From: Pseudogymnoascus verrucosus | Taxonomy: Eukaryota | NCBI GenBank assembly: GCA_001662655.1 | Contig: KV460225.1 | Reading direction: 5' to 3' (one strand) | Length of the DNA stretch: 64,000 nucleotides | Part shown: piece by piece, positions 24,976 to 44,718 of the stretch | How the letters are laid out: each line of letters starts with the position of its first letter | Position numbering within the stretch: the stretch's first letter is position 1 | Translations under genes and position numbers: made by a program | Notes under the pieces: generated by a model | Databases searched by the model: none | Told to the model about the DNA's origin: nothing | The model's input: only the letters and a program-made list of their open reading frames with translations

Positions 24976-25431
24976 CTACGAAGCGCTCTGCCTCCTCTGA
25001 TACCGACTCTGATCAAACGCGCTCGCATATCCCCTCAACTCCCTCCTCGCCTCCTCCGATACCACCTCCCCCACACTCGCACCGCTCTGCATCGAGAACA
25101 GCGAGCTCTGGCTTGAACTCGGTGTCAGCACCGGCCTGGTTTGCAGACGCGGGACAGAGTATGTAGCCTGCTGGCGCGGCTGAGGTTGGGAGTGTGCGCG
25201 TGCGTGGACGGCGGGGCGGATGGCGGAGGAGGAGGTCTTCTGGGAGAAGTCGTAGGCGGATGGGAGCTGGAAGGGGGTGTGCGAGTGCGAGGGCCAGGAC
25301 GGGGAGGAGGATGGGGAGGCAGAAGACTCGTATTCAGCGAGGCGGCAGGATTCAGAGCAGTAAGCTGAAGTGTCGGTTTGGCGGTCGCAGGCGAGGCAGT
25401 AGGAGGGAGACCAGTCGATTTCTTGGGCCAT
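24976..25431 (-). CDS. ECL1: Ecl1/2/3-family zinc-binding protein (extender of chronological lifespan)
   Basis: YCLACDRQT...AYCSESCRLAE four-Cys motif, LTPSSSQSSL, and C-terminal ARRELRGYASAFDQ; ACAATGG start context. Confidence 0.85.
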   Translation of the reverse strand: MAQEIDWSPSYCLACDRQTDTSAYCSESCRLAEYESSASPSSSPSWPSHSHTPFQLPSAYDFSQKTSSSAIRPAVHARAHSQPQPRQQATYSVPRLQTRPVLTPSSSQSSLFSMQSGASVGEVVSEEARRELRGYASAFDQSRYQRRQSAS

Positions 25432-28400
25432 TGTGGTGGTTGGGGGTGGTTGTTTGTGTGTGTGGTGTGGTGTGGTTGTGGATGAGGTGAGGTGAGGTGA
25501 GGTGGGTGAGAGGGTTGATTAAATATGTTTGTGAGCGATGGTGTGAAGTTGATGTGATGGTGATGAGACAACGTTTGGTGCGTGCTATGGCGAACAGGCA
25601 AGGCTGGAGAGGAAGATTGACGACAGGTGAGGTGCAGATGGTATCATTCCCTTCGGCGAGGCAGGTGCAGGAGTAGTAGTAGCGGCGGTATTGGCTGCAA
25701 GGCAGTAGAGATAGATTGATGCGATGTCGATGTTTATGTTCGTCTTGTTTGTATGAAGAAAGAGAAGAGGGTGCGGCGAGATAAGTTATATTAAAGCAAG
25801 GCGACGATGGACGGAGATGGATGAAAGGGATGTTAAGAATAAATATTTCTTTGTGGGTAAGGTGAGGATGACGGTTGGGAGTGAGTCGGAGTGGGGGGGA
25901 GGCGAATTTGGTTGCTTGGAGTAGAAATGTTCGTGGGTTTCACGGGGTGGGGACGAGGGTGAAGATATACAAAAGCTGGATAGGTTGAGGAGAGTGAGTT
26001 GAAGGGAGGGAGGGGTGGAGATAGTGTGGAGGCGGATGAGTTGTGGTGTGAGGGGAGGGGTGTGTGGGATGGGGGTGGATGGATGGATGGGGGGGCTTGT
26101 GGATAGATTTTGGCGTGCTTTTTAGGTACTTTGGGGTGATTGATGGGTGAAGGAGGATAACTGTAGACAAGCGTGGACATTCATAGACAAGCGTAGATGG
26201 GAAGGGTGGGGATGAGCGTCGTGGATGAGGGTAGCAGGTGCAGCTTGCAGGAAGTGGAGACAAGACAGGGGTGGGGACAGAGAGGAGGGTGGGGTGGAGA
26301 CAGAGAGCAAAGAGGAGAGAGAGTACTGTAAGAGAGTGGAGACAACTTTGAACGATGTTACTCCCCCTGCTAGTCCCTTCTCAGATAAGTTTAGCGGGAT
26401 TATGGAAAAGGGAGGGAGGAAGGGAGAGGGGGGAAGGGTGCGGGCAGGGGGAGGGAAGAAAGGGAAGAAAGGGAAGAAAGATGGTGCAGAAAGTTGGGTA
26501 CCTTTGTAGATTTAATGTGGGGAATCGAAGGAGAAAGAGTGGGGTTGGCTGTAGACTAGTATGTACTAGCATCAGTAGCGTCAAAATGGACAGACAAGAG
26601 AGCAAAAAAGGACAAAAGAGACAAGTCTTGGCGATGGGGACAGGGCGTGTGCGCGAGGTAGTACAGATATTAGCACATAGCACAGATATTCTAAGCGGCA
26701 CGGGGTAGGAGAGAGAGGGGGGTAGGAGAGAGAGGGGCAGACAGACAGACAGACAGACGAAAGAGCGAAGAAAGAGCAGTAAAACGAATGTCTGTACTCT
26801 GTACTACTCCCCCTCCCCTTCGTACGCTTAAGATTTCAACAAGGGGTCACACGAGCAAGGGTATATGACCAAGCAAGCCAGCGAGCAGGGATTCATAACA
26901 AAAAGCGCGCAAGGTTGTCTCACCCATACCCATAAACCAGAAGAAAGAACGCGCAACCACAACGCAGCCAGCCAGGTACAGGAGAAACAAGGCCAGGCAG
27001 GCGCGGAACATCCTAAAATACCTATTTTTTTCTCTCCATTTCGGTGTGTGTGGGTTGGTACAGGCAGGTGCAGCATCAAATGGGTGTGTGAGTGGTATGT
27101 CCAGTCATAAGTATCCCCGTACCTACCACTCCCCTCTCCCTGCTCCCTTTCCTCCACAAGGGCCACCCCCGTCCCCGCAGCCGTGTCGACAAGTGCTTGG
27201 CTAACTAAAGCTGTCCTCTCGCTCCACCCCCAGTCTCTCCCCTCTCCCTCTCTCCAGTTCCACTGCCACTAACACCTGCACTACACCGCATCCATCCAAA
27301 ACCTGACCCACTAGCGAAACAGCTCAGCTGCAGGGTTAGGTACGGTACACACAGACACACACATTTACGATCCCCTACGCCCCAAAAGTGTCTCACACCA
27401 CCCACACCCACAGCGCGTTGTAAGCGAGTCGACTCACGAGTAGGCGAGGGGGATGGGGGTGTGCTACATCGCTGTTTGTGATTGGTCCTTTCTTCCTCTC
27501 CTGGGTGGCAGCTGCACACCGTGATTGGCCAACGAACTGAATGATTACCCCACTTCTTCTGGTTGAGGGGGGTCCACGGCGCGCGCCTGGACGGGTGGGC
27601 GTTGTCTAGATGGGGATAAGTGCGTTTTGGTGCAGCAGGTGCCTTTGAACCAGGTAGAGAGGCAGACAGCGGGAGTGGGGCCATGGGCATGGGCATGGGC
27701 GTGGTGCAGCACCCACTGTAAAATGGAATGTGAGGTGTCGTGGCGGAGGGGGCGCCAATCCCTCTTTCCTTCTCTCTCTTCTGTGCTTCTGTGCGCCGCT
27801 GGATGCGGTGGTGGGGTTAATAAGGACAGAGACAGAGGAAGCAATCAAGCACCCAACGCTCCTGTCCTGTCCTGTCCCTCTGTGCAGCAGCGGAATATGC
27901 GCGCAGAGGGTCCCCGCTTGGGTTTGTCAGTTTGTCAGTGCAGACAGGACAGATGGAAGGACGTGCTCTATGCGATCAAAATCAATTTAATATAGTCCGC
28001 CGTACCTGCGAGCGATAGATGATGCTGTGTTGTGTTACTTGACGGCTCTCTTCCACCCCTCTCCCCTCTCTCACATCTCCCACCACCACTCACCTACACA
28101 CATTCCCACACGAACACTTCCACCTCCACCAGCACAGCTAAGACAACACCTGCCACCCTTAAACGCGATCAGCACCCCCATCCCACCCACCATATCATGC
28201 TCACCTCATCAATCACCAGCCCTCCCTCCCCCTCCTCCCCCCACGCACCTCACCTCATCCGTTATCATTAATATCAATAAACAATCTCAGCCCTCACAGC
28301 CAACAACCTCAAAAGGTCTCACCCCTCAATCCATCCATCGTGGCATACCTACCCCCCCTGCTACGCGCGGTATGCGCGGATACTCCTCCAGTCTATCTAT

Positions 28401-29453
28401 TTCCCTCCCACCCACCACTCCCCGCACGGTACTCGAGGTGGTCCATGCACACCCCAAGCCCGTCGCCAAGGACGCCTCGGGGGTTGATGACAGCGCTGGT
28501 GATAGGGGGTTGTATAGCGCGCTGCTAACCCCATCGTGGGAAAGTACACTGGTGGTGGTGGCTATAAATTGCGCGTAGCTGGAAGAAGGAGGGTAAGGGT
28601 AGTGGTAGAGATATGGGTGTTCGCCATCGCCGACGCCATCGTCTGTTCGTTTGTGGGTGTCGGGATTTCTGCATCACGCACGCCCACACACACAAATATA
28701 CCCCAGTCCGTCCATTCCCAGTGTGGTGATGGTAATATAAAAGGTACGTATGTACACAATACGCCCGGCGCTAGGAGGGACGCAGGACCGATTCTAACTT
28801 CTCTCGCTGTGTCTCTAACTCCTCTCGCTATCCCCTGCTATACTATATTGCGATAGCGCGATAGTAGATACAGCTATTTCGAGGCAAGTACGTACAAAAA
28901 GTGGGGGTGCCACCTCCCCTACCACCTCCTTCACCCAGTCACATCCCTCATAGCCCATCGAGAGTGGGGGAGATATTCGAGAGATCGGTGATGGGCGATC
29001 AGGGTGTGTGGGTACGTTTCCTCATTCTGACAATCTACTATACTGTGGACTCCACTATCAATCTGGCGATAATCTATACTATAGTTGAGAGAGCATCGAG
29101 GCCAGCACGGTTTAGGAAGGGATGAGAGGGTTGATTTGAGTTTCTTCGATGATGATCTGAGACGTTGGGGAGAGAGAGGACGTGCGTTGCGTTTGTTGAT
29201 CGGAGGGGGCTTAAGATGGTAGGAAGGGCGAGATTGCGTATGCGTATATGTACGTGGATATGAATATGGTTATGGATTGTGGATTGTGGATATGGACATG
29301 GACATGGAATGAACAGAACAGACTCTGATTATCTGACTCTCGCTTCAAGAGTCTATCTGCACCCTCAATAAACTCCCTCATTTACAGAACTGTACTCACT
29401 CACTCACCCCTCGCTTGCACGAGGCTGTGGCAGGAACCACCACGCAACCCAAG

Positions 29454-29519
29454 AGAGACGAGACAGACGAGCGAGACAGACGAGCGAGACAGACGAGCGA
29501 GACAGCCGAGCGAGACAGC
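29454..29519 (+). repeat. 13-bp minisatellite GAGACAGACGAGC (about 4-5 copies)
   Basis: Read directly from the sequence. Confidence 0.9.
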
Positions 29520-31725
29520 CGGATGCGGAAAGACATTTCAATCAATCCTAACACACACACATCTTACCCTCCCATGTCTAACAATCCCAACACATCTCAC
29601 ACCTTTAACTCTCACACTTCTCACACTTCTAACCCTCCTTCCCCTCCCGCTCTCAGCCCCAGAGACACACAGCCAGCCGTCTGCCAACCACGCTGACGCC
29701 TCCTCCTCTCCCCAATCCCAATCTCAGACACAGACGCAGGCGCAGGCGCAGTAAAACGCCATACAGACAAGACATATGTCTCACCTGCATCTGCATCTGC
29801 ACTTCGTTCGGCTCCAATCTGCACCGAAGGCTTTGGGTCCCTTCCCGTACCAAGGACGAGCACGAGGAGGACCCCGCTGGTGCGCGTCGTGGTAGTCTGA
29901 CGACCCAACGATCCTGTGTTGTGTTGGCGTCATTGGTGGCGAGCTAGAAACTTACTGTATGGGATTCTTGGTGGTGTTGCGATTCCTCATGATCGTGGGT
30001 GTACTGTAGTCATCTTGATTGGGGTTTGAAGATGGGGGTTACTGGTTGACTGCTGGGTTGATGGCTGGCTGGATTGGATTGGATCGACTTTTAATGAACT
30101 GCACAGTCGATGATGGCGATGATGATGACGATGACGAATGAGGGAAGAAATAAAAAAAGCCTCCCGTCAACGCGCAGCATCTCCTCGCCTTGCTGGGTGC
30201 GATGGCGTGGGTTTCTGACACCATCGTCGAGGCCAACAACCAGTGAGGTTGCGTGTCTCCCTCCCATCCCTCCTACTCTCCTGTATGTAGACAGGAGCGC
30301 AGCTGTGCCATGTGCATCATCGGCCACCCAACTATCCAACCACCGATCTATCCACCCACCCAGCCAGCCATGTTCCAACAAAGTAAAGTAAGTAAGGTAA
30401 TATGCAAGCAACCCATCGCAAACACATCGCGAACCATCCCATCCCACCATCCAGTATCCAAACAGTATCACCCAGGGTGTATGGGCGCTAACACCGCATC
30501 CTCTCACATGCGCGTCATTCCCTTGCCCCCTGCCCTGTCCTGTACTGTACTGTTCTTATGCCCTGTCCTGTATGCCCTTGTCACTCTCCCTCTCCCCTCT
30601 ACCCTGTCCTAGTCCAGTCCTTGTCCTGGTCCTGTATGCCTGGCTGCCTGGCTGCCTCGGACGCCTGGCTGGCTATGTATGTCCGTGTCAATGTCGTCTG
30701 TGTGTACAGCCAGCCCTGCTCGTCCGATCGGAAACTTACCCCCTTTCAGGCAGCTGGATGTCTGTGGTGGCCGGCCCACTCATATCCCGTCCTCTTTATA
30801 CGATATACGCTGCTTGTGCTTGGGATGCTGCGGGAATACGTATGGACATGGCCAGGGAGGGAGGGAGGGAGGGGATTGTATGGGATGTCGGTCGGTCGGC
30901 GATGCGAATGCGAGGGATGTGTATTGTACGTACATACAGGAGGTCGGCGATGCAAATGCAGATGCGATGCGAACACGGGAGTGAGGGATATGTACACTTC
31001 TTTCCACTCCTATCCCTCCTATCCTCTATTCCGAGTACGTACACACCACCCCTTGGCAACACCACGGTACGGTACGGCTATCTAAAACCAAAATATACTG
31101 TACGTACTGTGGTATACGTACTGTACTGTACTGCCCTGTACCGTAATAAAAGGGTTACAGTACAGCGGCAAGCCAAGGCAAGGCCCGTGATCGACCTGCC
31201 CGTGGGCTCGTGCAGTGGCGAGACGAGACGGCGGCACGGCACGGGGGCAGGTATAGGGGACTGACGGTGGCGAATTAATGACGAATTTTTCGGGTTGAGA
31301 GAGAGAAAACCAAGCATGGAAGAAAAAAAATGTTGAGATTGGGGAGAGGGTCCGGATATCGGGCGGGTGTAGATTGAGAGTGTAGTGTAGTGTAATTATT
31401 GGGTGGCGATGAGGGTGTGAGGGAGAGGCGGGTGAGGGTGGGTGGGTGTACAGAAGTAAGGGGCGATGGACAGAGGGTGTGTAGTAAAGCAGATCGTGAG
31501 GAGTGTCATGAGACACACATGCACCAGCAGTAGTATCGATATCGGCGTGGGCGGCAGAGGCGAGAGAGGTGGGTGGTGGGTGGTGGGTGGTGGGTGGTGG
31601 GTGTGTAGCTGACGAACAGGTGGACGGGTATGGCGGAATGGCGGAAGTGCGTTGACCACATCAACCACATCAACCCATTAATTGTTAATCTATCTACCCT
31701 ATCCCATATACTGTATCCATATACT

Positions 31726-31773
31726 GTATGTATGTATGTATGTATGTATGTATGTATGTATGCATGCATGTAT
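31726..31773 (+). repeat. (GTAT)n microsatellite
   Basis: Read directly from the sequence. Confidence 0.95.
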
Positions 31774-32199
31774 GCGCTATATCGCATGCGCCATCGGTCA
31801 TCGCCATTTAATAGTCGCGCAAGATATGATATTAAATCTAGACTTTGATTTTTAATATATTTTTTGTGGATTAATATATATTCACTCGACAGAAATATAT
31901 ATCACTCAACTCAAGCTAATATAATTCTAACCCCCCACTCTTCTAAAAAATAATGAGCACATTAATCTATGACACAATAAGCTCAGTCGAGATCATGCTG
32001 TGTACCCTACGTAAAGAAATAAAAACCTGTCATTGTTTGAGTGTGTTTGTGTGATACCTCGCTGGATTCGTAGGTGTCGCGGATAGAGTAGAAGGGGGTA
32101 TAGTAGTAAGTCAGCCAGCTTGGTCTGGACTTTCTCAGGCTGAGAGATCGACAGGAGGTGTGGCAGATGCAGTGCACGTGACCAGACACCACACCTATG

Positions 32200-33325
32200 A
32201 ATCCGCGCAAGAAGCGCAACTAAACAGCCCATCTGCGCATTCTCGGTGAGGTCGGCCGCCGTGATGGCAGCCTTAGGTGCTGTCTACCTTCATAGCCTTT
32301 CTCTCCCCTCTCTCCTGCTATCTAAGCCTTGTAGCAGCCTAAGCCCGTGGCGGTGCCGCCATCTCACATAAGCGCACCGCCACACGCCGAAAATGCGCAA
32401 AAGCGCACACCGGCCGACGCTTATGCGCATTTTCGGTGCTACCTACTGCCGGACGCCGCTGTGAGCAGCCAGCCTTGCCTGCACCCCCTCGTAGCCTTCT
32501 CTCCCTGTGTCTCCTCCCCTTTGTGCCTTATAGTTTGCCTAAGGCAGACTAACTGTGGTGGTGCCAGCCTGCACCGCCACAGTCCTAAAACCGCGCACAA
32601 GCGCACGAAAAGTGACGCTTGTGCGCATTCTCGGTGCTGTCGGCCGCCGTGAGGCGGCCACCCTTCACATCAGCCTTAGAGTAGTCAACAAGGCTGGTGT
32701 AAGGCTGTGTGTGCAAGGTGTGACAAAGCGCCACATCTTGCACCGCCACACCCCTAAAAGTGTGCAAAACCTCTACTCACTAGGAGGTTTTGCGCACATT
32801 TCGGTGTTGTCGGCAGCCGTGAGCTGCTTGCCGCCTTGCTCACGGCGCGGTGACAACCTTTGCCGCCTCCACTCCTCCTCTCCTCCATACCTTACATAAG
32901 CGCCAAGCCTGTGGTTTTGCGCACTTGTTGCACTCCTTGCGACAAAGTGCGCAAAATCGGCCGGATAATAATCCGAGCCGGCTACCGCAATGAGCTCATT
33001 GCGCCAGCCGGCTCGGATTAACTCACGGCCGGTTTAGCACAACGAGCGCACTAGAAGCGACTCGTTGCGCGAAATCGGTCGTATATTGATCCGGCCAGCA
33101 CCACGAGTCACTCGGTGTGCTCATAGTGCCGGCCGGATTATCCCATAACCGATTTTACGCACTTCTTGCACGCACTGCAATGAAGTGCGCAAAACCGGCT
33201 GGGCATTATTCCGAGCCGGCGCAAGAGCTCACACCAAGCGACTCATTGCGCCGGCTTGGAAAAACGCATGGCCGGTTTTGCGCAACGAGCCCACAGGATG
33301 CGACTCGTTGCGCAGAATCGGCCAC
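32200..33325. repeat. Palindromic hairpin array: four ~170-200-bp units followed by seven ~60-bp alternating A/B hairpin units
   Basis: TGCGCA(T/C)TTYTCGGTG units at ~32234, 32423, 32622, 32792; stems such as TAATCCGAGCCGGCT/AGCCGGCTCGGATTA (32969-33020) and TGGCCGGTTTTGCGCAACGAG/CTCGTTGCGCAGAATCGGCCA (33269-33324). Confidence 0.85.
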
Positions 33326-33399
33326 GCGTTCCTCCGTGCCGGTGAGCGCGAAACTATCCGAGACAAAAGGAAAAGGTATCTATCACATCTATCATCCAT

Positions 33400-33880
33400 A
33401 TACTTCCGCATATAGACAAGACATCTCATCCCCCTCCCTCTCCCTCTCGTATACACGAGACATCACCATCCACCTCCCACGCGCTCTCCCTCCCTCCCTC
33501 CCGCAACGGTAGGTAGCGGCAGGAGCGGCACGCCGTATATTCCATGGAAGGCGCAGCAGCAGTAAGACAAAGACAAACCACCTATCCCCTCGCTTCTAAG
33601 CAAGACATCTATCTTATCCTTCCACGCCACGCGCTCTCCCCCTCCCTCCCGCAACGGTAGGGGAATGGCAGCGGCAGGTGCGGCACGCCGTATAACCCAT
33701 GACGCAGGAGTAAGACAAGGGAGAAGAAAGTACCTATCCCCTCGTTTACAGTTGAGCGAGACATACATCTCATTCATCTTTCCATCTTTCCATCCATCCA
33801 TCCCACGCTCTTCCCATCCCGCACTCACACACCCCTCCATCCCTCCCGCAACGGCACAGCGGCAGCGTCGGCACAGACCA
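33400..33880 (+). repeat. Diverged tandem repeat, ~150-200-bp unit, about 2.5 copies
   Basis: CCCTCCCGCAACGG..AGCGGCAG..CGGCAC at ~33496, ~33644, ~33841; GCACGCCGTATA..CCATG..AGTAAGACAA in copies 1 and 2. Confidence 0.85.
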
Positions 33881-34302
33881 GGTGATTATCCCGTAAATAG
33901 CCTGGAACACTCAATTCATTACTTTACTCACACACGCTCGCATGGCTCGCGTATTTCCTCCCCTTCGAGAGGCGTGTCTTGGCGATGTGCCGAGAGGTGG
34001 AGGTGTCTGAGAGCTGCGTGGCCTTGCTAAGACGGGTGGGGTGGAGAGGGGAGGTGTTGTGAGCTAGGGGTGTATGGAGCTTTGTTTAGTAGCTTCATGG
34101 TGGCTCGGGGGTATTGTGATGGGAGGGAGGGCGCGGGGTATGGGGATAGTTGGGTGCACGGTGCGGAGGGTGGTGGCTGGGGATGGATAGGGGGAGGGGG
34201 GTAGGTGATAGTGTTCTTTCGGGGTGGGCGAGGATTGTGGGGGAGAGAGGGGGGGAGTTTGGTTTATGTTTGGTAATTGTTGCGGGTTAGTGTTTCTATT
34301 TG

Positions 34303-34410
34303 TTAGTAGTGTCGTTTGTGGTGTTAGTAGTGTTAGTAGTGTTGTGTTAGTAGCGTTTAGTAGTATTAGTTGCGTTGGTAGTGTTAGTAGCGTTAATAGC
34401 GTTAGTAGTG
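34303..34410 (+). repeat. Degenerate GTTAGTAGT-type short tandem repeat
   Basis: Repeated GTTAGTAG(T/C) units read directly. Confidence 0.75.
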
Positions 34411-37014
34411 CGATTTGTAACTGTGGAGGAAGCAACATCACAGCAGCAAGTCCAGCCGGGCTAAGCCACTACTTGACCTGGGGAACTGTGGAGAAGTAAT
34501 TATAAACTGTCACCGAGGCATCTGAAACGGGCGTAGAGGATTGTGGGGAACTCGATTTTTTCTCATCAAACTCGCACAAGCAGTATGTGGGGAACTGTAC
34601 GCTTTCTGTACTACTCGTATGTAAGAGCTGGCTAGTTCCAACGAGGGGAAGTATGGAAGTGGGGTAATGTTGGGAAAATGTATGAGCTGGCCAATTTTGA
34701 TGAAGTGGATTGATTGATTGATTGATGATGCTTGCGACTGATCGCTGCTGGCCGCCGGCCGCCGCCGTTTCGTTGTACCTACCTTGCCATTGTGCGCACG
34801 GTAGATGAGCTGGGGAAGCTAGACTCTGGGGGGAGGTGGGATGCATGACATGGCTCTGATTACACGACCTGGTCGACATCTACGATGGGCGAGGTGCATG
34901 ACAGATGTTGCAGTCGGTAAGCTCGGCCGTCGCGCTGGGTTGGTGGCTTGAGGGGGAGGACGAGGGGGTGAGATCAGAAAGTGAGGGTGATCACCACTTT
35001 GCGACTGAGGTGATCACGGGGATAGCCGTCAGAGATGGGGGGTGGGAAAGGAGAGTTGCTTTTGGAACGCCACTACCACTATAGCCACGCGCTATACAGA
35101 TGACAGGCATTGATGTGATGTGTGGAGGGATGGGGGCGGGACAGCATCTCCTACTCTCCTATGGTGGTATCCGGCAGTTCAATCAGAGTGACATCCTCCC
35201 CCACAGTTCATGCTGTCGTCGTCGCATTCCCCATACCCATCACCACCACGGCGGCATCTACCGTCTGCATTCAATCCATCCCATTGCAGAAAAATAAAGA
35301 AAAGAAAATCAATACACCAGCCAGTCCCTGCCGCCCTCACATTCATGCACGCACGGCACACCCAACAACCCTCCCTCCCGACTAACACACACAAAGTCTG
35401 ACCGTGTAACTCCCCCCCGCCGATCCCCCTTCCCTCCCGAGACAAACGGCCTCTCCACCACCAAATAACCACCCCCCTCAACATCCGCATCGAGCCACAC
35501 GCAGCACCTGAAGCTGACCGACGATCCAGCGGGCGCGTAGCACAGAAACGCCTCCCTCAGCCCCCAGCACAGCACGGCTATCTCCACGCCCACAGCGTCG
35601 CACAACGCGCCTGCCCCTATTCCAGTCCAGGCCACCACAGCCAGCCAGCCAGTCCAGACCAGCCGTGTGTCCGTCGCACAAACCACCACCACCGTACTGT
35701 CCCAGGTTAATCCCACCACCCCACCATGGATAGCGTTGCCACACACACTGTCGCACAGCGCAGGATGGGGATCCTATCACAGCATCACCCGGAGCTGCCG
35801 CGCTGACGGTACCAAGATCTAAAATCGCCGACGACCCGGCGTGGCGTCGCGCTCCCGGTCTCGGGGTCCTGGGTTCGGGAGAGTAAGCTGACGGTGGGAC
35901 GAACCCGACCCGGAGGACGGGAAGGGGGGTGGTGATTGTGATTGCGGCGTGATGACTGGTGTGATGACTGGTATGATGACTGGTGTGATGAACCTCCCAA
36001 CGGCGCTGCGCGCGGATATGCTAAATTCCCCATCCATACGCTTGGGTCTGTTCCGGCGGTACTGCACAGTACAGTACAGGACGGTAAGTTGCAAGTCTCA
36101 CCTCTCACGGCTGGGCGCTTTCAAGCGCGTGGCCTCCTTTCCCTCCGTCACCCGGTCCCATAGTCGGGGGAGTCCGTATCCAATGCAAAAGAATGCACGC
36201 ACGCACGACCCGTGTCTCGGGAGGGAGAGAGGGAGTGTGCTCGGATCTATATACGAGATACGGTGCATACGGTGGGTGCGCGTGGGAGTTGTCACATATC
36301 ACATTTCACATCTCACTCTCATCTCGTTTCTTTCCCTCTGTGCTCAGCCCCCAACCCGTCCGTTGCCGCTCCACGTTTTCGGGGTTCGTTGGGTCTGCTG
36401 CGGCGTGCGTAGGGCGGCTGGGGGCGGGGGGGGGGGAGGTTGGTCACATATCATTTTTTTTTATCTTTGGGGAGGACGGGGCTGAGCTGAGCACGTTTTC
36501 GGGGCCACATCTCATATTCACACGCTCGGGTGGACACGTTTTTCGCGAGTCTTGAGAGTCTGTTTTGGGGATGTGGGCTGTCACATATCACATTTATATT
36601 TCGGCCTCATTGGAAGGTACACACGGTAGGGCACGTTTTTGCCATCCCATTCCGCATTCGAATTGTGGACTGTCGTATATCACATTCATTTTATGTCCAA
36701 GACACGTTTTATTGCCGTCCATTTTCGGGAAGTACCCCTATCCATCACATTTCACATCTCTTGTTTTTTGCGGCAGCAAGGGTGAGAACACGTTTTTCCT
36801 GTTCGGCCGTTTTCGGGGGTGCGCTGCTGGGATGGGCTGTTCTATCATATCTCGTAAAAAGCCTATGTATGTGATCTGCTGCTGCGGGAGGACACGTTGT
36901 TGGGGCGTCCCTGCTGCGGATGGATGGATGGTAGGTATCACATCTCTCTTTTGGGAGGGTGAACACGTTTCTGGGCGTTGAGAAGCTTGATCTGGGCATG
37001 TATAGGATCTTGTT

Positions 37015-37365
37015 GGAATTCTGCATTTTTCACGTTTCCCCCCCTTACTTCCCCAATATCCATCACAACATCCCATAGCGCAGTCATGATCTCGTTTTCA
37101 CTGTTGTGGGAATTCTGCATTTGTCACGTTCCCCCCCTTAGTTCCCCAATATCCATCACAACATCCTATAGCTCAGTCATAATCAAGTTTTCTCTCTTGT
37201 GGGAATTCTGCATTTGTCACGTTCCCCCCCTTACTTCCCCAATATCCATCATAACATCCCATAGCGCAGTCATAATCACGTTTTCTCTCTTGTGGGAATT
37301 CGGCATTTGTCATCCCCCCTCCCCCCTTACTTCCCAATACCCACCAACCCATCACAGCATCCCAG
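37015..37365 (+). repeat. 93-bp minisatellite, about 3.7 copies
   Basis: GGAATTC.GCATTT starts at 37015, 37109, 37202, 37295, each followed by CCCCTTA(C/G)TTCCC(C)AATA. Confidence 0.93.
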
Positions 37366-37579
37366 AGCTCAAGCTCAGTAACACCACCTCTGCCCGGTCC
37401 AACACCCCAACCCCAACACCACCCCCCTTACCTCCCCAACTCCCCAACCATTCTTCCAACCCGGTGACCGGTACACGCACCAGCGGCGTGAACCCATCAC
37501 AGCGGTATCCCCCCCTTAAGAAACGTGCCTATGCGTCGCTGTATCCCCTATCGCGGGAGTTAATACACGTTTTGAGCGT

Positions 37580-38860
37580 TCGGAACGCTCGGTAAGGTGT
37601 CGCTATCATTATCACACCGGTTTGTTCCCTATTTGACTGTGATCGTCGGTCCCCTTGCTTTGTGTGGCGTCCTGTTAACGGCGTCCCGGGATCTGGTAAG
37701 ATACAGTAAGCAAATTTCTCCTTCAGTTGCGTAGGGACCGTTGCAGCGGTATTTCCCTCGTTCGGCGGTGGCAGCGGTGGGAGACCACGGTTCTAGGCTT
37801 GAGGCGTGATGTGGTATTATCAATATCACTATCATACTCATTCCCCCCCCATTTGACCGCGATCGTCGCCCCAATGCCGCCCCCTTGCTTCATACAGCGC
37901 CCTCCCCTAACTTGCGTTCCGAGATCCGGTAAGAGCAGACACAGTAAGCAGATTCCCCTCCAGTCATGCATGCAGTGCCCATTCCGGCCATATCTCCTCG
38001 TCCGTCCAGACCGCGCCATCTACCCCATCTCACCTCGAGTTCGCTCGTTTTCCCCCTGTCCCTACCCGCGCCGATGCATTCTAGAATCTCGGTATCAGTA
38101 TCACCCTCTTTATTTCCGAATTCGTCGCGATCGTCAACCCAATGCTGTCCCTTGCTTCGTGTGGCGTCTCGTCAACGGGCGTCCCGAGATCCGGTAAGCT
38201 TACGACAAGCAATGTTTTCTGCTGTAGTTAGGTCCCATCACGGCGGTATTACCTCGAAGGGGAGATAGCACCATCGCATCGCTCTGTCCCTACCCGCGGG
38301 GTTCGCACGCCATGGGAGCTGCCGGGCTCGGTATCACTATCACATCCGTTTCTTCTGCATTTACCGAGATGCCCCTTACTTCCCCAACGCCCGTAACTGC
38401 GTCCTGGTGGTTGGAACGCTGAGGGGCCGGGGCGGCGGTATTGCCTTGATGGGGAGATGGTGCTGTATCGTTCTGTCCCTAGCCGTGGGATTCATGCGTT
38501 CTGCGAGCTTAAGCTGGGTATTACTACCTCCCTCTCCCGTTAATTGTGAAGTCCATCGAAGATCGACGACGCAATATCAGTCCCTTACTTCCCCCAGCGA
38601 CCGTTGACGCAGCCAGGGTGTCGTCCTATCACATCCCATCCGTCCGTTCACACCCCATCGCAGTTACGAGATGCGTCCTTCCAGCGATATTTCCCCGTTC
38701 GACCTATGCTGCATTCCTGTACCCCTTCGTTTCAGCAGGAATACACGTTCTAGGCCTCCTCGGTCTCCGTTTGTCTCTCATTCCTGTATATATATCTCTA
38801 AACCTCTTGGGATCGACAAACCCAACGTCTGTCCCTTACTTCCCCAACGCCCATTCCGTC
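37580..38860 (+). repeat. Highly decayed ~230-270-bp tandem repeat
   Basis: GATC(C/T)GGTAAG at 37690, 37923, 38188; TATCA(C/G/T)TATCA at ~37604, 37824, 38093, 38332; CCCTTACTTCCCCA at ~38374, 38582, 38833. Confidence 0.7.
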
Positions 38861-39386
38861 CTCCCGCCGCCTGGAAAGTCCATCTCGACCTCTTCATCCT
38901 GCAGCCATGACCCATAGCGGCGATATTCCCCTTTCCGCGTCCCCTTTCTGCAGGATCTCACTTTTTCATCTCTCTGTACTACCTCACCCATCCCCCCTCC
39001 CCCCACGGCCTCTCGGTAAGCATATCCAGCCATTCCGCTGCAGCGAGTACCCGTTATGGCGGTATCCACAACGAGCTGGTAGGACAAACAAACATATCTC
39101 GCGTTTTCCACCCTCCTGCCGCTACCCGCCGGATGATACATTCTGGGTGTTCCGCTTCTCGGTATCACTTTCTGGGTTTATGGCCGCCCCACTCCCTTGC
39201 TGGGAGTGCTCGAAAGGGAGTCCCGGGGTTGCGGGATGCCCTTTCCTGTTTTTTTTGTTTTTTTTTGTTTTGGAGAGGGATTTTCTGCGGTTTGGTAGCG
39301 GTGGGGGGGTGGGGGGAGGGGTTGGCTATTGCGTTGGAGGGGGATCTTTGGGGAGGCAGTTGGGGGGGGGTTTACGATTTACTCTG

Positions 39387-39506
39387 GAGCAGGATTTGGG
39401 GAGCAGGATTTGGGAAGCAGGATTTGGGGAGCAGGATTTGGGGAGCAGGATTTGGGGAGCAGGATTTGGGGAGCAGGATTTGGGGAGCAGGATTTGGGGA
39501 GCAGGA
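39387..39506 (+). repeat. 14-bp minisatellite GAGCAGGATTTGGG, about 8.5 copies
   Basis: Near-perfect tandem array read directly (one G>A variant). Confidence 0.97.
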
Positions 39507-39910
39507 ACTGGAGATGGATGGCTGGGTGCACACTCTTTGGATCACTTCTATAGTAGAGAGGGGGCGGTGGTGGTTATTTGCTCGATTAACCCGTCGATTT
39601 CGTTGGTTTTGATAGCTGGACGAATAGTATATCTACAACTACCCCTTAATCTTCTCTGATTTGCACTGGTATACCCCCCTTTTTCTCAACCCGCGAGGCA
39701 CGTATCCCCCGCGCCTTACACACATCCATCCATCCATACACACACCATAGACCACAAAAGCTGGATACAGCTTTGAAGCTTACCACTCCCCCATTATCAT
39801 AGAATAAACCCCATCATCAACAAATCCCACCCCGTCAATAACCTCTCATCCCACCGTATCAACACCCCCATACCTCCCAATCAAACAAAAACGCCAAACC
39901 ATACCCCCAA

Positions 39911-42900
39911 TTAACCACCCCTCCCCACTCCCCTTCCTCTCCCCCGTCCCCCCCCCCTTCCCCGTCTCGCAAACCCCAACCCCAACCCCACCGTCCCGCC
40001 CCTCCCAGCAACAGGGACAACCCTCCGCGCCGGAATCTCTTCATCTGCATCCCCCCCATCATCCGATGACTCCTCCGACGTCGGGCTTCCCACCTTCTCA
40101 ATTCCCCTTTTCTCCCCTACCCCACTCGTCTGCTGAGGTGAGAAGCGGGGGAGGCGGATTTGCATCCCTCCTCCACCCCTCGGCGGTGCCGTGGCGGCTG
40201 GTTTCACACTCACCGCGCGAGTCTCCGCAAGTTTTGTTGCGGGAACTGTAGCTGGTGCAGCTTTAACTGGGGGAGGTGGAGACGGTGAGACAGACTCCTG
40301 CTCTTCCTCCTCATCAAGAAACATAGCCTTAAACCCCGCACTCCCACCCGCTACAGCCGGTTTCGGGGGTCCCCCACGCTTAACCCTCGCCCTCTCCATC
40401 TCTTCTTTCATTTCCTCCTCGGCTAGACGCATCGCTTCCATCTTCGCATCCCTGTAGCCGGTTGAGATGACACTCCCCGCGCTCGACGCTGCTCCCGAGG
40501 GCGGGGGTTGTTGCGATTCCGCTCTGTCGGCGACGGAGGGGGTGGCGGATTGGTAGTGCGAGGAGTGCGAGGAGTGCGAGGAGAAGAATCCCCCATCATC
40601 GTTATCGTCGTTGTACACAATCTCACCATCATCATTATCGTCGAACCGGATAGGACTATCTGTACTCACACCCGGCACCGGACGAGGAGAGAGGGATGTG
40701 CTACCATCCATATCCCTACTCCTCGGCCTCGCATCCGCGTCCTTGTGTATCGAGTTCGCTCGGGATGAGGCGCGCAATGGAGAAATAGTGATAGTCTCCG
40801 CGGCCGTCGTCTCAGCGGGTGGTGGATTCTCCGTTTTGATGGGAACAGAGTTCACAGCTGTAAACGAGTTGGTGGGTTCCTCGACTTCATCGCTGTCATC
40901 GGAAACGAATAGACTAGACCCCCTCCTCTTTTTCTCGAGTCTCGTATCCGCCTCAGCATTTTGTGCTTCTGGAGAGCGCGGGCGTTTATTAGCTTGTAAT
41001 CCCTCATCCACTCCTAAACTCGTAGATTTGCGCGGTGGTCGTCCCGGGTCTCTCTTCTGAGCGATGGCTGGTTCGGCAGCTGGAGCATCTGGGGCTGCAG
41101 GTTTCTGAAACATCCCAGATCTCCGCATTCGTGTGCCAAGTGGTGGTGGTGCTGCTGTTGTTGTACCGACGCCGTTCTCAGGCGCGGGCGTTGTAGAAAC
41201 AGCAACCCCCGATCGACGCGGTCGCCCAGGTCCGCGTTTCTGAATCTCTGGGCTGCTGATGGTGGGCTCGGGCGCAGATTCAGAAACTTCAGACCTACGC
41301 GGGCGACCTCCTATGAACCTCCGGTTTTCCGGGCCGCTGATGAGGTGGGGTTCAAGCGCTGGAGGTTCCGAAATCCGGGATTTCGGTGGTCGACCCGGTC
41401 CACGCCTCTGTATTTCTGGACTGTTGCTGAGGATAGACTCGCGCGCAGGTTCAGGAACGTCGGATCTGCGCGGTGGTCGACCCGGTCCGCGCTTGGGCGT
41501 ATCTACGTTGTTGGCGAGAGATAGTTCGGGTGCCATAGTTGCTGAAACTTGGGATCTGGGAGGCCGTCCTTGTGATTTCCGCGGCTCAACTACGATGGTA
41601 CCTTCCTTCGCCGGAGGAGCAGATATCGATCCACGAGGGGCACGCTCCTTCTCCTGCGGTGCAGATACCGAACCACGAGGGTAACGCCTTACTGGAACAA
41701 TAGTGTTGATCTCCGGCTCCTCTTCCTCATCCTCATCATCCTGAAGGTATACCGCATTCTCGCGAACATCAGAAGTGACGACCATAGAATCAACCCCCAC
41801 CTGCTCCTTCCTCCCCAAACTTCCCCTCCCCGGTCTCGGATTATGTCTGGGCGCCTCCTCCTCACCAAACGCCTGCAGCCTCCCCAAGAACTCCTTATGA
41901 TTCGGCAGCAACAGCTTGACTTTACACGGTTTCCCGCCTTCAAGTTTATTCTTCGTCATAAAAAACTTCCCCTCCCTCTTCGCATCGGTCAATTTCTGCT
42001 TCTTCTGCGCGGCTTGGAACTGTAAATACGCCTCATCTACTGGACCCTTCAGGCTCTCACGCTGATGCTTCTTGTTCGGACGCACCAGAAGCCCATCTTC
42101 AGAGTCTGATTGTAGGCGCGGGTACGCGGCGTCCTGGTGTTCGTCTTCGGCGGCGGCGTCGGGGGCGTCGAAGAGGATCTTGTCGGCGTCGTTGCGCTGC
42201 TGGTAGTACCCTATTCCCATCATGCGCTCGCGGGGGATGCCTTGGGGGTCTGGGTAGACGGAGTCGGGATTTTTCATTACGTCGGCCGGGGATGCGAATG
42301 CGGGGTTCGCATCTACGTCTATGGTTGGGGGTAGCTTGGAAACGCCTGTTCCTCCAAACATGGGTGCAGTAGGCGCCCCTCCATCTCCACCAGATAACAG
42401 CGCGGGGTCGATCGCATCGCCCACAGGCTGCATGTCCATGTGCTGACTCCCCATACGCTGACCCATCTCAGAGTCTTCCTCCAGCGTCTCATCACGGGAC
42501 TTCTCAGCCTGCGCCTTCTCCATCAACTTCTTCATCCTTACGGAATCCTTCGGCGCTGTATCCTCCTCCCCCTTCAACCAAGCGAGGTTCGTGCGGCTGA
42601 AATCGACCAAGCTTTCTACACTGCGTGGATCAGCGACCATGCGTGTGTCGTGGCCAAGTAATGTGCCTTTCGGCTGGTAGGGAATCTGCTTGGACGAGTT
42701 CACTCTACGGCACGCGCCGCAAGAACAGATCAACCGGCATTTCGGGCATTGCCAGTCCAACGTCTCCATGATCTTCTCTGGCTTGATGTCAAAGGCCCGC
42801 CAAAGAGTACCATAACAGTACGAAAGTGGACACGTAGTGCAGAAAGCAAGTTTCCAGTCCGCCTCCATTTTTCTGCAGATATGGCAAGTTGACCGGTGCT

Positions 42901-44718
42901 TCTTCTCAGCGAGGGATTGCCGCTTGCCTTTCCTCTTCTTTGGTCGGCCTTCATCATCGGCTTCTGGTTCGACGTCGGAGTCGCCAGGAAGCGGGTCGAG
43001 GACATGTGGCTTCGTTATGTCGCGCCACGGCCTCTTTTTGAGTTGTTCTTGACATATCTGAGCAATTGGCTTCTTGCCAGAGTGCTGCCTTTCTATCTCC
43101 AACGTTTGAGGTGAGGTGTTATCAACGTATCCATCAATGTACAAGACCATTGCACGCCATACGTCGTAGCGCTTAGTTAACTCGGGCCAGCGCCATTGCT
43201 CAACCCACTGTAGATTTGACAAACAGGCGCAAGATCGACCCATAGCGTAACAATCCATACATATATCATACGTATCCTCATCGCCATTCTCTAGCTCTCC
43301 AACACAAGTCTTGCATGTCAAGAACCGATTGAAAATGTTGCACCGGCAGTAAGAGCAAGTGACGTTGCTATCGAACTGAATAAACTCGACGTTCTTCTCC
43401 TTCGGCATATCAGGCGAAAACATCTCGCTCACTAAAATCGTCTTGTAGAGCCCGAAAAGGCGTTTGAAGTCTCGCTGTAGCTGTCTCACCCTCGGAGCAA
43501 ACCTGACCGGCTCTGACTGATAAGCACCAAAACCAGACTCCTCTTCCTTTTCTGTCTTCTGCAGATCGGTGTAGTATCTCAACAGCGAATAGTATACAAT
43601 AGCTTTACACTTATATTGTTCGTCCCTGCAGACCATGCGCGCGCGTGGCAAGGCTTCGGAGAGCGCCATCTCAAGCGTCTCCACCGTCGTGCGGTTCCAT
43701 GCCACCTTCATCGTCCGCGTGCCCCTATTCCAGACCTGATGCGGCGCAAGCGGCGGGATGAGAATGAAATCTCCCACCTTCTGCTCAACTATGTAGACTG
43801 GGAAAGGCGCCTTTTTCCAGGCAACAATCTGGGCAAAGTGGTTCTCAACCTCGATATCGTGACCGAGCATAGACAAGAAGTACTCGCTAACAACCTCCCT
43901 ATCCTTCGTCTCGGTCATGAACCAGATAGAACTCCCCGGCTTCTCGCCCTTGCCCACATCAGACGTCTCGACCATGATATTCTGCCCAACCGTTGCGCAC
44001 ATCTCTCGGTGGGCGGGGGTGTAGGTCCCTTCGTGGCCGATATAGCACATCATGTTCTCCGCGCGCATCTCCGGTGGTAGATTGCTCATCAGGTCGCCGG
44101 CTGGAGCAATTCCTTGCCCCATAACGAGGTGGTTGTATTTGTCCCTCTCGTGCACGGATCCTGGGCCGCCTTTCTCTCCAACGCAGTTGTTGAGGTATAA
44201 GAGTGTCTGGGGAATGTATTCGCGTAATTGGTGATCCCATGCTTCGGGGCAATCGATATCCTTGAGATAGAGGCGCTGACGCTTGGCATCACGGAAATTC
44301 GTAGGTGTCCATTGCCTCGTCAGTTTCTCTAGAGAATTGAGGTAATGGCCGATTGTCATGGGGACGTTGGTATGATTAGCAATGTCTCGAACTTGCTCCT
44401 CTACTGAATGTTAGCAGGTGATATTGAAGTGAGGCGGACATACTGACGCTTCTTGCCCAGGTTATCTTGCATCCAGGTCGCGCTGTACAGCCACGGCGGG
44501 AGATCACTCTCCCAACCTTCCACGACCAGAGGTTTGCCGCCCTGGATAACATGCAACAGGACCAGCTTTTCGAATTCTTGTAGGCCCAGTTCCCTGATCT
44601 GGTCGGTGGAGATACGAATCACATAGTCGAAGTTGGGCGTCTTCTCAACGAGGGCGCTGAGGTCGAGATCCGGCGGTATGGGATCGAACATCGCCTGGGG
44701 GTGAAGATTGGAAGGCAT
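39911..44718 (-). CDS. dmm-1: JmjC-domain chromatin protein with Cys-rich fingers (zf-4CXXC_R1-like) and AT-hook-like repeats; probable orthologue of Neurospora DMM-1; exons 44718-44448, 44400-39911
   Basis: JmjC with LYLKDIDCP, TPAHREMC (HxE) and APHQVWN (His); CSYCRC..CKTC..CMDC cluster; CHIC..CTTC..YCYGTL..WQCPKCRLICSCGAC; intron 44447-44401 in frame. The orthology is from recalled domain architecture only. Confidence 0.82.

What the first reader, a model, noticed from the sequence alone, without database searches (positions are those of the whole stretch)
32913..33324. Regular A-B-A-B-A-B-A hairpin array with ~60-bp pitch and compensatory inner stems
Seen: seven adjacent hairpins at about 32913-32958, 32969-33020, 33027-33080, 33087-33140, 33148-33199, 33209-33261 and 33269-33324. 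Type A has outer arms CCGGTTTTGCGCA/TGCGCAAAATCGG. Type B has TAATCCGAGCCGGC/GCCGGCTCGGATTA. Inner stems differ between copies yet still pair (ACTTGTTGCA/TGCGACAAAGT; CAACGAG/CTCGTTG; ACTTCTTGCA/TGCAATGAAGT; CGCAATGAG/CTCATTGCG), and there is a higher-order ~236-240-bp period (hairpin 1~5, 3~7). Inference: pairing kept while sequence changes suggests selection on structure or arm-to-arm conversion rather than plain satellite decay. The layout recalls bacterial REP/BIME arrays. Candidates are a polycistronic small-RNA precursor, a structured lncRNA, a cruciform/protein-binding platform, or the termini of an unrecognised non-autonomous mobile element. It matches no fungal element I recognise.
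Basis: partly seen in the sequence, partly recalled or inferred. Interest (0 to 1): 0.8.

Follow-up and report, generated by a model that had tools for sequence, protein, structure and literature searches.

The report
Fixed-spacing palindrome arrays in a fungus
The hairpin row is one copy of a hidden genome-wide family of short repeats, each built around two six-letter palindromes exactly 30 bases apart; this is probably a docking site for an unidentified DNA-binding protein, and here the copies were later turned into hairpins by copying errors rather than by selection on an RNA.

Summary
The seven hairpins are real (z -19) and occur once in the genome. They are the right half of a 1.2-kb cluster (32160-33345) whose unit is a site TGCGCA-N24-TGCGCA. 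That exact site occurs 42 times in this 30-Mb fungal genome against 3 for the control. A profile finds 109 sites in 30 of 46 fetched stretches, mostly in short, fast-diverging tandem arrays between ordinary genes. Elsewhere the 24-nt spacer keeps its length, loses its sequence and shows no arm-to-arm pairing, which fits a double-stranded protein site. In relatives the array changes faster than its flank (17 of 412 vs 2 of 676 bases), varies in unit number and shows no compensatory pair. The centre of hairpin 4 is flipped, as template switching would do. Best reading: arrays of a two-half protein site, probably left by a mobile-element lineage, with hairpins as a by-product. No element ends, transposase or binding protein were found, so a host chromosomal element remains open. 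Ten literature searches found no description.

The parts
32160..32850 (.). Left part of the cluster: four ~170-200-bp tandem units U1-U4, each with one site, plus extra hairpins between the sites
   Evidence: spacing 190, 198, 170 (D4); fold z -14.9 for 32500-32800; single copy in G000
32204..32239 (.). Site U1, CGCGCA-N24-TGCGCA, spacer barely paired
   Evidence: DNA MFE -7.3
32394..32429 (.). Site U2, exact TGCGCA-N24-TGCGCA in a hairpin
   Evidence: (I8)
32592..32627 (.). Site U3, CGCGCA-N24-TGCGCA; inner stem, 5-nt loop, one bulged A
32761..32796 (.). Site U4, TGTGCA-N24-TGCGCA; 7-bp inner stem, no bulge
   Evidence: (I7)
32911..32960 (.). H1 (type A), exact site at 32918-32953
32966..33022 (.). 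H2 (type B), degenerate unit with loop deleted; GCCGGC arms still 30 bp apart (32977, 33007)
33027..33080 (.). H3 (type A), degenerate site at 33036-33071, N24
33085..33141 (-). H4 (type B), centre inverted: the CAC-N5-GYGAC loop motif lies on the - strand while the outer linkers keep + orientation
   Evidence: motif 5 times on +, once on - (33119); left linker scores 11 forward vs 2 reversed against H2
33148..33199 (.). H5 (type A), TACGCA-N24-TGCGCA at 33156-33191
33207..33263 (.). H6 (type B), GGCGCA-N23-TGCGCC, showing that B derives from the same unit as A
33269..33324 (.). H7 (type A), exact site at 33279-33314; a partial B arm follows at about 33333-33343
   Evidence: (I3)
24976..25518 (-). 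Nearest family-matched gene on the left: Ecl1-family ORF (stop-to-stop frame); the cluster lies about 6.7 kb upstream of it
   Evidence: PF12855, E 1.8e-14
39911..44410 (-). Nearest family-matched gene on the right: JmjC / zf-4CXXC protein; its 3' end faces the cluster
   Evidence: PF02373, PF10497

Best explanation
The repeated unit is a ~46-bp double-stranded DNA site: two palindromic half-sites (about GNWWN-TGCGCA-NWWYC) whose centres lie 30 bp apart, roughly three helical turns, around a spacer of free sequence but fixed length (shown). A protein or protein pair that bridges both halves most likely binds it (inferred; protein unknown). Sites sit in short tandem arrays that gain and lose units in place (shown for this locus). 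At least one sub-family is dispersed with ragged ends (shown), so the arrays most likely descend from the internal or subterminal repeats of a mobile-element lineage with no coding copy found in this genome (inferred). At this G+C-rich locus, template switching between the already symmetric arms copied one arm onto the other and once flipped a centre. That turned sites into full hairpins, and the ~60-bp monomer was duplicated as an A-B dimer (inferred from the H4 inversion and the paired-but-different inner stems). The folding is then a by-product.
For: Exact site 42 vs control 3; refined pattern 62 vs 3. 17 of 22 TTGCGCA..TGCGCAA pairs are N24. Hexamer pairs at period 30: 68, against 6 at 29 and 3 at 31. 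In 87 sites outside the window, inner complementarity is 330 of 1044, against 366 +/- 15 expected; median DNA MFE is -7.1, against -14.6 to -20.6 for 6 of 7 window sites. Units picked by other anchor motifs still carry both hexamers in 16 of 18 cases, with a diverged spacer of 24 nt (25 in two). Mismatches fall mostly on the outer T (61 of 218 hexamers) and rarely on the inner C and A (4 and 5). Dispersed 70-83% copies of the C49 sub-family have different left ends at six other loci. Run X10 has an extra unit with a new spacer that is again 24 nt, and an array about 129 bp shorter. Substitution excess: X5 p 4e-6; X10 U region 36 of 428 vs 34 of 1048, p 6e-5. Template switching is known to homogenise arms and invert spacers (PMC8604942, abstract).
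Against: No binding protein was identified. No element ends, target duplication or shared coding neighbour was found. Only 3 of 16 clusters have a clearly positive composite RIP index, and two more are near zero; 3 of 5 Starship-captain relics are clearly positive. Spacing is not absolute: N23 is common at C21, and four N15 units lie at C7. Conservation of GCGC columns is only modestly above other columns in the C49 alignment (0.84 vs 0.74; 0.81 for other CG/CA/TG columns). Most stretches were fetched because they held a hit, so site counts are partly circular. In X10, H1-H3 is not faster than the flank (7 of 177, 4.0%, vs 3.2%). In X10, three U3 mismatches are paired again (read by eye), and its new unit is fully paired with the same bulge, which selection for a hairpin could also give.
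Confidence: 0.5

Rival explanations
1. Same site and same by-product hairpins, but the arrays are host chromosomal elements kept by selection (replication enhancer or origin, boundary, pairing or loading site) and read by a host protein; mobility is secondary.
For: No ends or transposase. The locus is held in runs X5, X10 and X11, with units turning over in place while N24 is kept. Several sub-families with unalignable flanks share only the site. The two hexamer changes at near-intact sites in relatives (32593 in X10, 33279 in X5) hit the tolerant outer positions. The N15 variant (21-bp period) keeps helical phase (inference).
Against: Ragged, dispersed C49 copies look like mobile relics. Neighbouring genes share no function and gene orientation is mixed. 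Two large clusters lie 500 kb apart on contig C6, which argues against centromeres.
Confidence: 0.25
2. This locus has been co-opted as a polycistronic hairpin RNA (milRNA or endo-siRNA precursor, or structured lncRNA), whatever the origin of the unit.
For: Stems of about 20-25 bp with small loops are Dicer-sized. Folding z is -15 for the window, against -0.2 to -5.1 for 8 of 9 other clusters. A one-base bulge recurs in most units and in the new X10 unit. 5 of the 7 non-Watson-Crick stem pairs newly present in X5 would be G-U wobbles on the - strand.
Against: 0 compensatory pairs and an excess of change in X5. Unit number differs in X10. No wobble strand bias (9 vs 11, p 0.82; 10 vs 16 with X5, p 0.33). 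H4 faces the other way. Rfam matches are generic hairpin hits far below gathering score (best 46 vs 200 bits). The C6:708k cluster also folds (z -11.3), so folding follows G+C-rich clusters.
Confidence: 0.12
3. The hairpins are single-stranded recombination or nicking substrates (attC-like or HUH/REP-like) for an unknown recombinase that also drives unit gain, loss and inversion.
For: Fixed-length variable core between conserved inverted boxes; recurrent extrahelical base; unit gain, loss and inversion. Tyrosine-recombinase (DUF3435) relics exist in the genome (19 matches).
Against: Most sites in the genome cannot fold inside. 0 sites in 19 DUF3435 loci. U4 and H2 lack the bulge. No cassettes or genes lie between sites. 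Directional bias of the spacer is weak (1 of 12 nulls as good).
Confidence: 0.06
4. Neutral minisatellites from one ancient ancestor; the spacing is inherited, not constrained.
For: High turnover and local variants (N23, N15) that spread within a cluster. A weak shared TAG at spacer positions 20-22 hints at common ancestry.
Against: Spacer sequence is the most diverged part while its length is fixed and indels flank it. Mutable CpG/CpA hexamers survive across sub-families with unalignable flanks.
Confidence: 0.07

Closest known systems
HINE / DINE-1-type non-autonomous Helentrons carrying short satellite-like arrays (oyster Cg_HINE; PMC7492417, passages read)
   Same: Dispersed short arrays of about 140-180-bp monomers, variable copy number, divergent monomers that share only a few motifs.
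   Different: No subTIR pair, 3' palindrome end or Rep-helicase gene found here; the shared motif is a two-half site with fixed 30-bp period.
Template-switch products at quasi-palindromes (PMC8604942, abstract read)
   Same: Arm homogenisation, spacer inversion and clustered changes, as in H1-H7 and H4.
   Different: Explains the hairpins, not the genome-wide site or its spacing.
Subterminal transposase-binding repeats of CACTA (En/Spm TnpA) and PIF/Harbinger elements (recalled, no call)
   Same: Arrays of inverted motif pairs bound in double-stranded DNA.
   Different: Those lie inside TIR-bounded elements with target duplications; none was found here.
Baculovirus hr regions and EBV oriP family of repeats (recalled, no call)
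   Same: Dispersed or tandem clusters of dyad sites with strict spacing that bind a dimeric protein; a works-like analogy only.
   Different: Viral, different sequence; no viral contig held such a cluster.
Bacterial REP/BIME and integron attC arrays (recalled, no call)
   Same: Alternating palindromes, one inverted unit, an extrahelical base.
   Different: Eukaryotic host; most family members do not fold; no TnpA-REP or IntI neighbour; 9 prokaryotic hits were scattered, none in such a cluster.
Fungal milRNA precursors and Drosophila hpRNA loci (search listing only; otherwise recalled)
   Same: Run of ~55-nt hairpins with 20-25-bp stems.
   Different: No covariation, faster change than the flank, one unit inverted; expression untested.

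Membership tests
HINE / non-autonomous Helentron | Dispersed short tandem arrays with variable monomer number | tested here: met
HINE / non-autonomous Helentron | 5' subTIR with nearby IR, 3' subTIR and palindrome (PMC7492417) | tested here: not met
   no enclosing inverted repeat at 15 of 16 clusters and a weak 14-bp match at one; only a partial IR beside a conserved 26-bp block at one end of the C49 family (by eye); very short decayed subTIRs could be missed
Helitron / Helitron2 (FoHeli) | FoHeli GAA-loop terminal hairpins, or hairpin plus CTRR end (PMC5148889) | tested here: not met
   FoHeli-like motif in 0 of 16 clusters; hairpin plus CTRR-type candidate only about 440 bp beyond C49, inside the neighbouring gene
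Helitron / Helitron2 (FoHeli) | Rep-helicase partner in the genome | tested here: inconclusive
   PF14214 0 matches, but the control was also blank; PF05970 1 intact match, on C5, 330 kb from the nearest listed motif hit; counts are lower bounds
TIR DNA transposon / MITE / foldback (CACTA, PIF, MULE, hAT) | Terminal inverted repeats and target-site duplication | tested here: not met
   at C7:28k the neighbouring pogo and Ginger-like relics have their own TIRs and the sites lie outside them
TIR DNA transposon / MITE / foldback (CACTA, PIF, MULE, hAT) | Empty orthologous site | tested here: inconclusive
   3 of 4 laid runs cover part of the cluster and none joins across it; more distant genomes were not available
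Starship | Captain (DUF3435) gene at the element start; TTAC-type direct repeats (PMC10104507) | tested here: not met
   19 DUF3435 matches, none at a listed cluster; 0 sites in those 19 loci, each +/- 1.5 kb; direct repeats not tested
milRNA / hairpin RNA / structured lncRNA | Folding better than shuffles | tested here: met
milRNA / hairpin RNA / structured lncRNA | Compensatory changes and conservation among orthologues | tested here: not met
   0 compensatory among 9 changed pairs; 17 of 412 vs 2 of 676; only one relative covers the whole array
milRNA / hairpin RNA / structured lncRNA | Transcription and Dicer-dependent small RNAs | not testable with these tools
   only contigs were available; no raw or stranded reads
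REP/BIME or attC | All members fold as single strands; HUH or IntI enzyme nearby | tested here: not met
   no arm covariation in 87 sites; no such Pfam domain among 125 neighbouring ORFs
Double-stranded protein-binding array | Conserved half-sites with fixed spacing and free spacer sequence | tested here: met
Double-stranded protein-binding array | Demonstrated binding by a protein | not testable with these tools
   needs pull-down, EMSA or footprint data

The most novel reading that the evidence does not exclude
A previously undescribed chromosomal element of a filamentous-fungal lineage: some 30 or more dispersed clusters of dyad sites at a strict three-turn spacing, read by an unknown host or domesticated protein and acting like viral hr or oriP arrays (replication enhancer, tethering, pairing or boundary). 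Binding or nicking there would make the clusters hotspots of duplication, inversion and fold-back repair, which at this locus built the hairpin array.
Probability: 0.25. Interest if true: 0.85.

Novelty: new variant of a known kind. Interest (0 to 1): 0.6.

Why it matters
To my knowledge (recalled), sequence-defined origins, boundaries and pairing sites are almost unknown in filamentous ascomycetes. A sharp, genome-wide, spacing-constrained site is directly testable by pull-down and plasmid assays, and would point either to an unrecognised mobile-element family or to a host chromosomal element. The locus is also a clean warning: an array with folding z near -20 and 'compensatory' stems between paralogues can arise from DNA template switching without any RNA function.

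Tried and rejected
Rfam: 0 matches at gathering score; 11 weak generic hairpin hits. tRNA/tmRNA: 0. Sequencing runs: no RNA holder listed; this says nothing on expression. X14 (kind unknown) covers only 33669-33865; an uncovered part proves nothing. I laid 4 of 18 listed runs. Metagenome scan for the A-B junction: 15 of 15 hits unrelated. Viral scans: 0 hits, and 31 hits with no cluster of this kind. Prokaryotic genomes: 9 hits, no shared neighbour; one pair sits at the end of a DDE_Tnp_1_4 insertion sequence. Other genomic copies of the array, the U region and the 36.3-39.3-kb tract: none; that search skips common words. Shared coding relic beside clusters: none. Centromere: rejected because C6 holds two large clusters. 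Universal directional spacer: weak. The sigma-70 scan is irrelevant to a fungus. Earlier scan notes: nothing on this genome or sequence; the TGCGCA notes returned were phage or bacterial. Ten paper searches found no description of the motif. Subscription papers and all supplements were not seen, and the MATE/Spe-repeat papers were not readable (one search gave only a citation). Resemblances to the C/EBP site and the XerC arm of dif are recalled and were not pursued.

Full report
OBSERVATION. The stretch folds far better than shuffles on both strands and as DNA: z -19.3, -21.5 and -14.3, with 0 of 100 shuffles as good in each case. It is single-copy in the 30.2-Mb, 151-contig genome G000 and has no Rfam match at gathering score. 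It lies in a 14.4-kb stretch between an Ecl1-family gene and the 3' end of a JmjC gene; four long ORFs tested in that gap matched no Pfam family. The host is a filamentous ascomycete by gene content (inference); my genus guess was not tested. Four related units, U1-U4, lie just upstream at 190, 198 and 170-bp spacing, so the cluster spans about 32160-33345.

WHAT THE UNIT IS. Every A hairpin and every U unit is a pair of TGCGCA-type hexamers 24 nt apart. B hairpins are worn versions of the same unit: H6 is GGCGCA-N23-TGCGCC and aligns with A and U units at up to 62%. Searching G000 showed a family. 17 of 22 TTGCGCA..TGCGCAA pairs have N24. The exact site occurs 42 times against 3 for the reversed control, and a refined pattern 62 times against 3. 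In the first 20 fetched stretches, one earlier locus and the window, hexamer pairs peak at period 30 with 68 cases, against 6 at 29 and 3 at 31. A profile found 109 sites in 30 of 46 stretches and 0 in five shuffled windows. Most stretches were chosen for a hit, so this is partly circular; 13 neighbouring stretches taken without a listed hit held 0. Large clusters of 6-11 sites lie on C1, C2, C6 (two), C36, C49 and C53; C21 adds one with mixed N23/N24 spacing. They sit between ordinary genes of unrelated function, in mixed orientation.

IT IS A DOUBLE-STRANDED SITE, NOT A HAIRPIN. Each half-site is itself palindromic (about GNWWN-TGCGCA-NWWYC). In 87 sites outside the window the two arms pair no more than their base composition predicts (inner 330 of 1044 vs 366 +/- 15). 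Median DNA MFE there is -7.1 kcal/mol, against -14.6 to -20.6 for 6 of 7 window sites. Folding z in nine other clusters is -0.2 to -5.1, except -11.3 for the G+C-rich C6:708k cluster. When units are picked by unrelated anchor motifs, 16 of 18 C49-family units still carry both hexamers. Their spacer is the most diverged part in sequence but fixed in length (24 nt; 25 in two), while indels flank it. The excess conservation of GCGC columns is modest there (0.84 vs 0.74), and 0.94 vs 0.74 at C6:205k. Mismatches concentrate on the outer T (61 of 218 hexamers; inner C 4, inner A 5). Exceptions exist: N23 units at C21, and four N15 units at C7, a 21-bp period or two turns. Orientation bias of the spacer is weak (1 of 12 nulls as good).

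SUB-FAMILIES AND MOBILITY. Clusters fall into groups that share flanks within the group but only the site between groups: C49 with six dispersed 70-83% copies whose left ends differ, and C1/C2/C3/C36. The window's U units match only C58 weakly (E 0.009; 0 hits in reversed DNA). No enclosing inverted repeat was found at 15 of 16 clusters, no FoHeli-type end at any, and a clearly positive RIP index at 3 of 16. Helitron Rep gave 0 matches with a blank control, PIF1 one intact gene, and none of 19 DUF3435 loci holds a site. At C7:28k the sites lie outside the TIRs of adjacent pogo and Ginger-like relics. So mobility is indicated but the parent element is unidentified.

RELATIVES. 17 of 18 listed runs hold part of the stretch; I laid 4. 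X5 covers H1-H7 with 19 substitutions in 32875-34000: 17 of 412 array bases vs 2 of 676 flank bases, p 4e-6. Of 9 changed stem pairs, 6 lose Watson-Crick pairing, one G-T becomes A-C through two changes, one stays mismatched, one is restored, and none is compensatory. One 3-base change makes the H3 loop match the H6 loop (read by eye), so part of the excess may be conversion between units. X10 has an H array about 129 bp shorter and extra U units. One extra unit has a new spacer that is again 24 nt and fully paired with the same bulge (table 5c, read by eye). Its U region differs at 36 of 428 bases vs 34 of 1048 in flanks (p 6e-5), but its H1-H3 piece is not faster (7 of 177). In X10, three U3 mismatches are paired again, which cuts the other way. 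X11 covers two short pieces at low depth.

HOW THE HAIRPINS AROSE. The loop motif CAC-N5-GYGAC lies five times on + and once on -, in H4, whose outer linkers keep the forward orientation (left 11 vs 2, right 5 vs 3 against H2). Arm homogenisation plus spacer inversion is the described outcome of polymerase template switching (PMC8604942, abstract). G-U wobbles favour neither strand (9 vs 11). I infer that a symmetric site was perfected by arm-to-arm copying, then duplicated as a ~60-bp monomer and ~120-bp A-B dimer, while point changes keep breaking pairs.

MECHANISM AND ODDS. Shown: the site, its spacing, clustering, turnover and the lack of covariation. Inferred: a protein bridging two half-sites about three turns apart. 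Odds: mobile-element-derived binding arrays with by-product hairpins 0.5; host chromosomal element 0.25; co-opted hairpin RNA 0.12; neutral satellite 0.07; single-strand recombination substrate 0.06.

KNOWN SYSTEMS. Closest in layout are HINE-borne dispersed arrays (PMC7492417, passages), but their defining ends were not found. Fungal Helitron2 ends (PMC5148889, passages) and Starship features (PMC10104507, passages) are absent. CACTA subterminal repeats, baculovirus hr, EBV oriP, REP/BIME and attC are recalled analogies from no call. PMC4438637 has no passage on motifs or palindromes (term search); PMC11401059 gave only a citation on MATE. The other papers were seen as search listings only. 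Ten searches found no description of the motif; supplements and subscription papers were not seen. Outside this lineage no comparable cluster appeared, but no other fungal assemblies could be searched.

VERDICT. Observation confirmed; RNA reading not supported; the real feature is an apparently undescribed genome-wide fixed-spacing dyad site. Novelty: new variant of a known kind, with no family membership met. Interest 0.6.

Noticed in passing
window 36300-39300: A separate, locus-unique degenerate satellite of about 93-bp period (CACGTT and CCCTTACTTCCC boxes), with 3.6 well-kept copies at 37008-37343. It has no N24 site.
   Followed up: partly
window 33477-33875: Three ~150-190-bp direct repeats right of the array; this flank is highly conserved in X5 (2 of 676) and is the only part covered by run X14.
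   Followed up: partly
window 25500-39900: 14.4-kb stretch upstream of the Ecl1 gene, with no Pfam match in four ORFs tested and rich in microsatellites and several unrelated tandem families.
   Followed up: no
L048 2859-3250 (G000:C7:529k): Cluster with one N24 site and four N15 sites (21-bp period) in alternating A-B-A-B spacer types.
   Followed up: partly
L055 3017-3125, L073, L084: A 26-bp block nearly identical in three dispersed C49-family copies about 400 bp outside the first site, with a partial inverted repeat about 75 bp further out; a possible element end.
   Followed up: partly
L047 338-4809 (G000:C7:23-28k): Nest of broken transposons: pogo-like with ~110-bp TIRs, a Tc1-like piece, and a Ginger-like integrase-CXC element with 24-bp TIRs (the Ginger label is recalled).
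   Followed up: partly
L037 8940-9500: Repeated ATCACGTG boxes about 50 bp from the sites in the last three C1 units; two also beside the single C2:673k site.
   Followed up: no
G000: 19 DUF3435 (Starship captain) matches on 11 contigs, most with many TAG/TAA stops, as RIP would leave.
   Followed up: partly
L144, L148: In one Blastocatellia genome the same pattern forms a hairpin at the end of a two-copy DDE_Tnp_1_4 insertion sequence; probably coincidence.
   Followed up: partly
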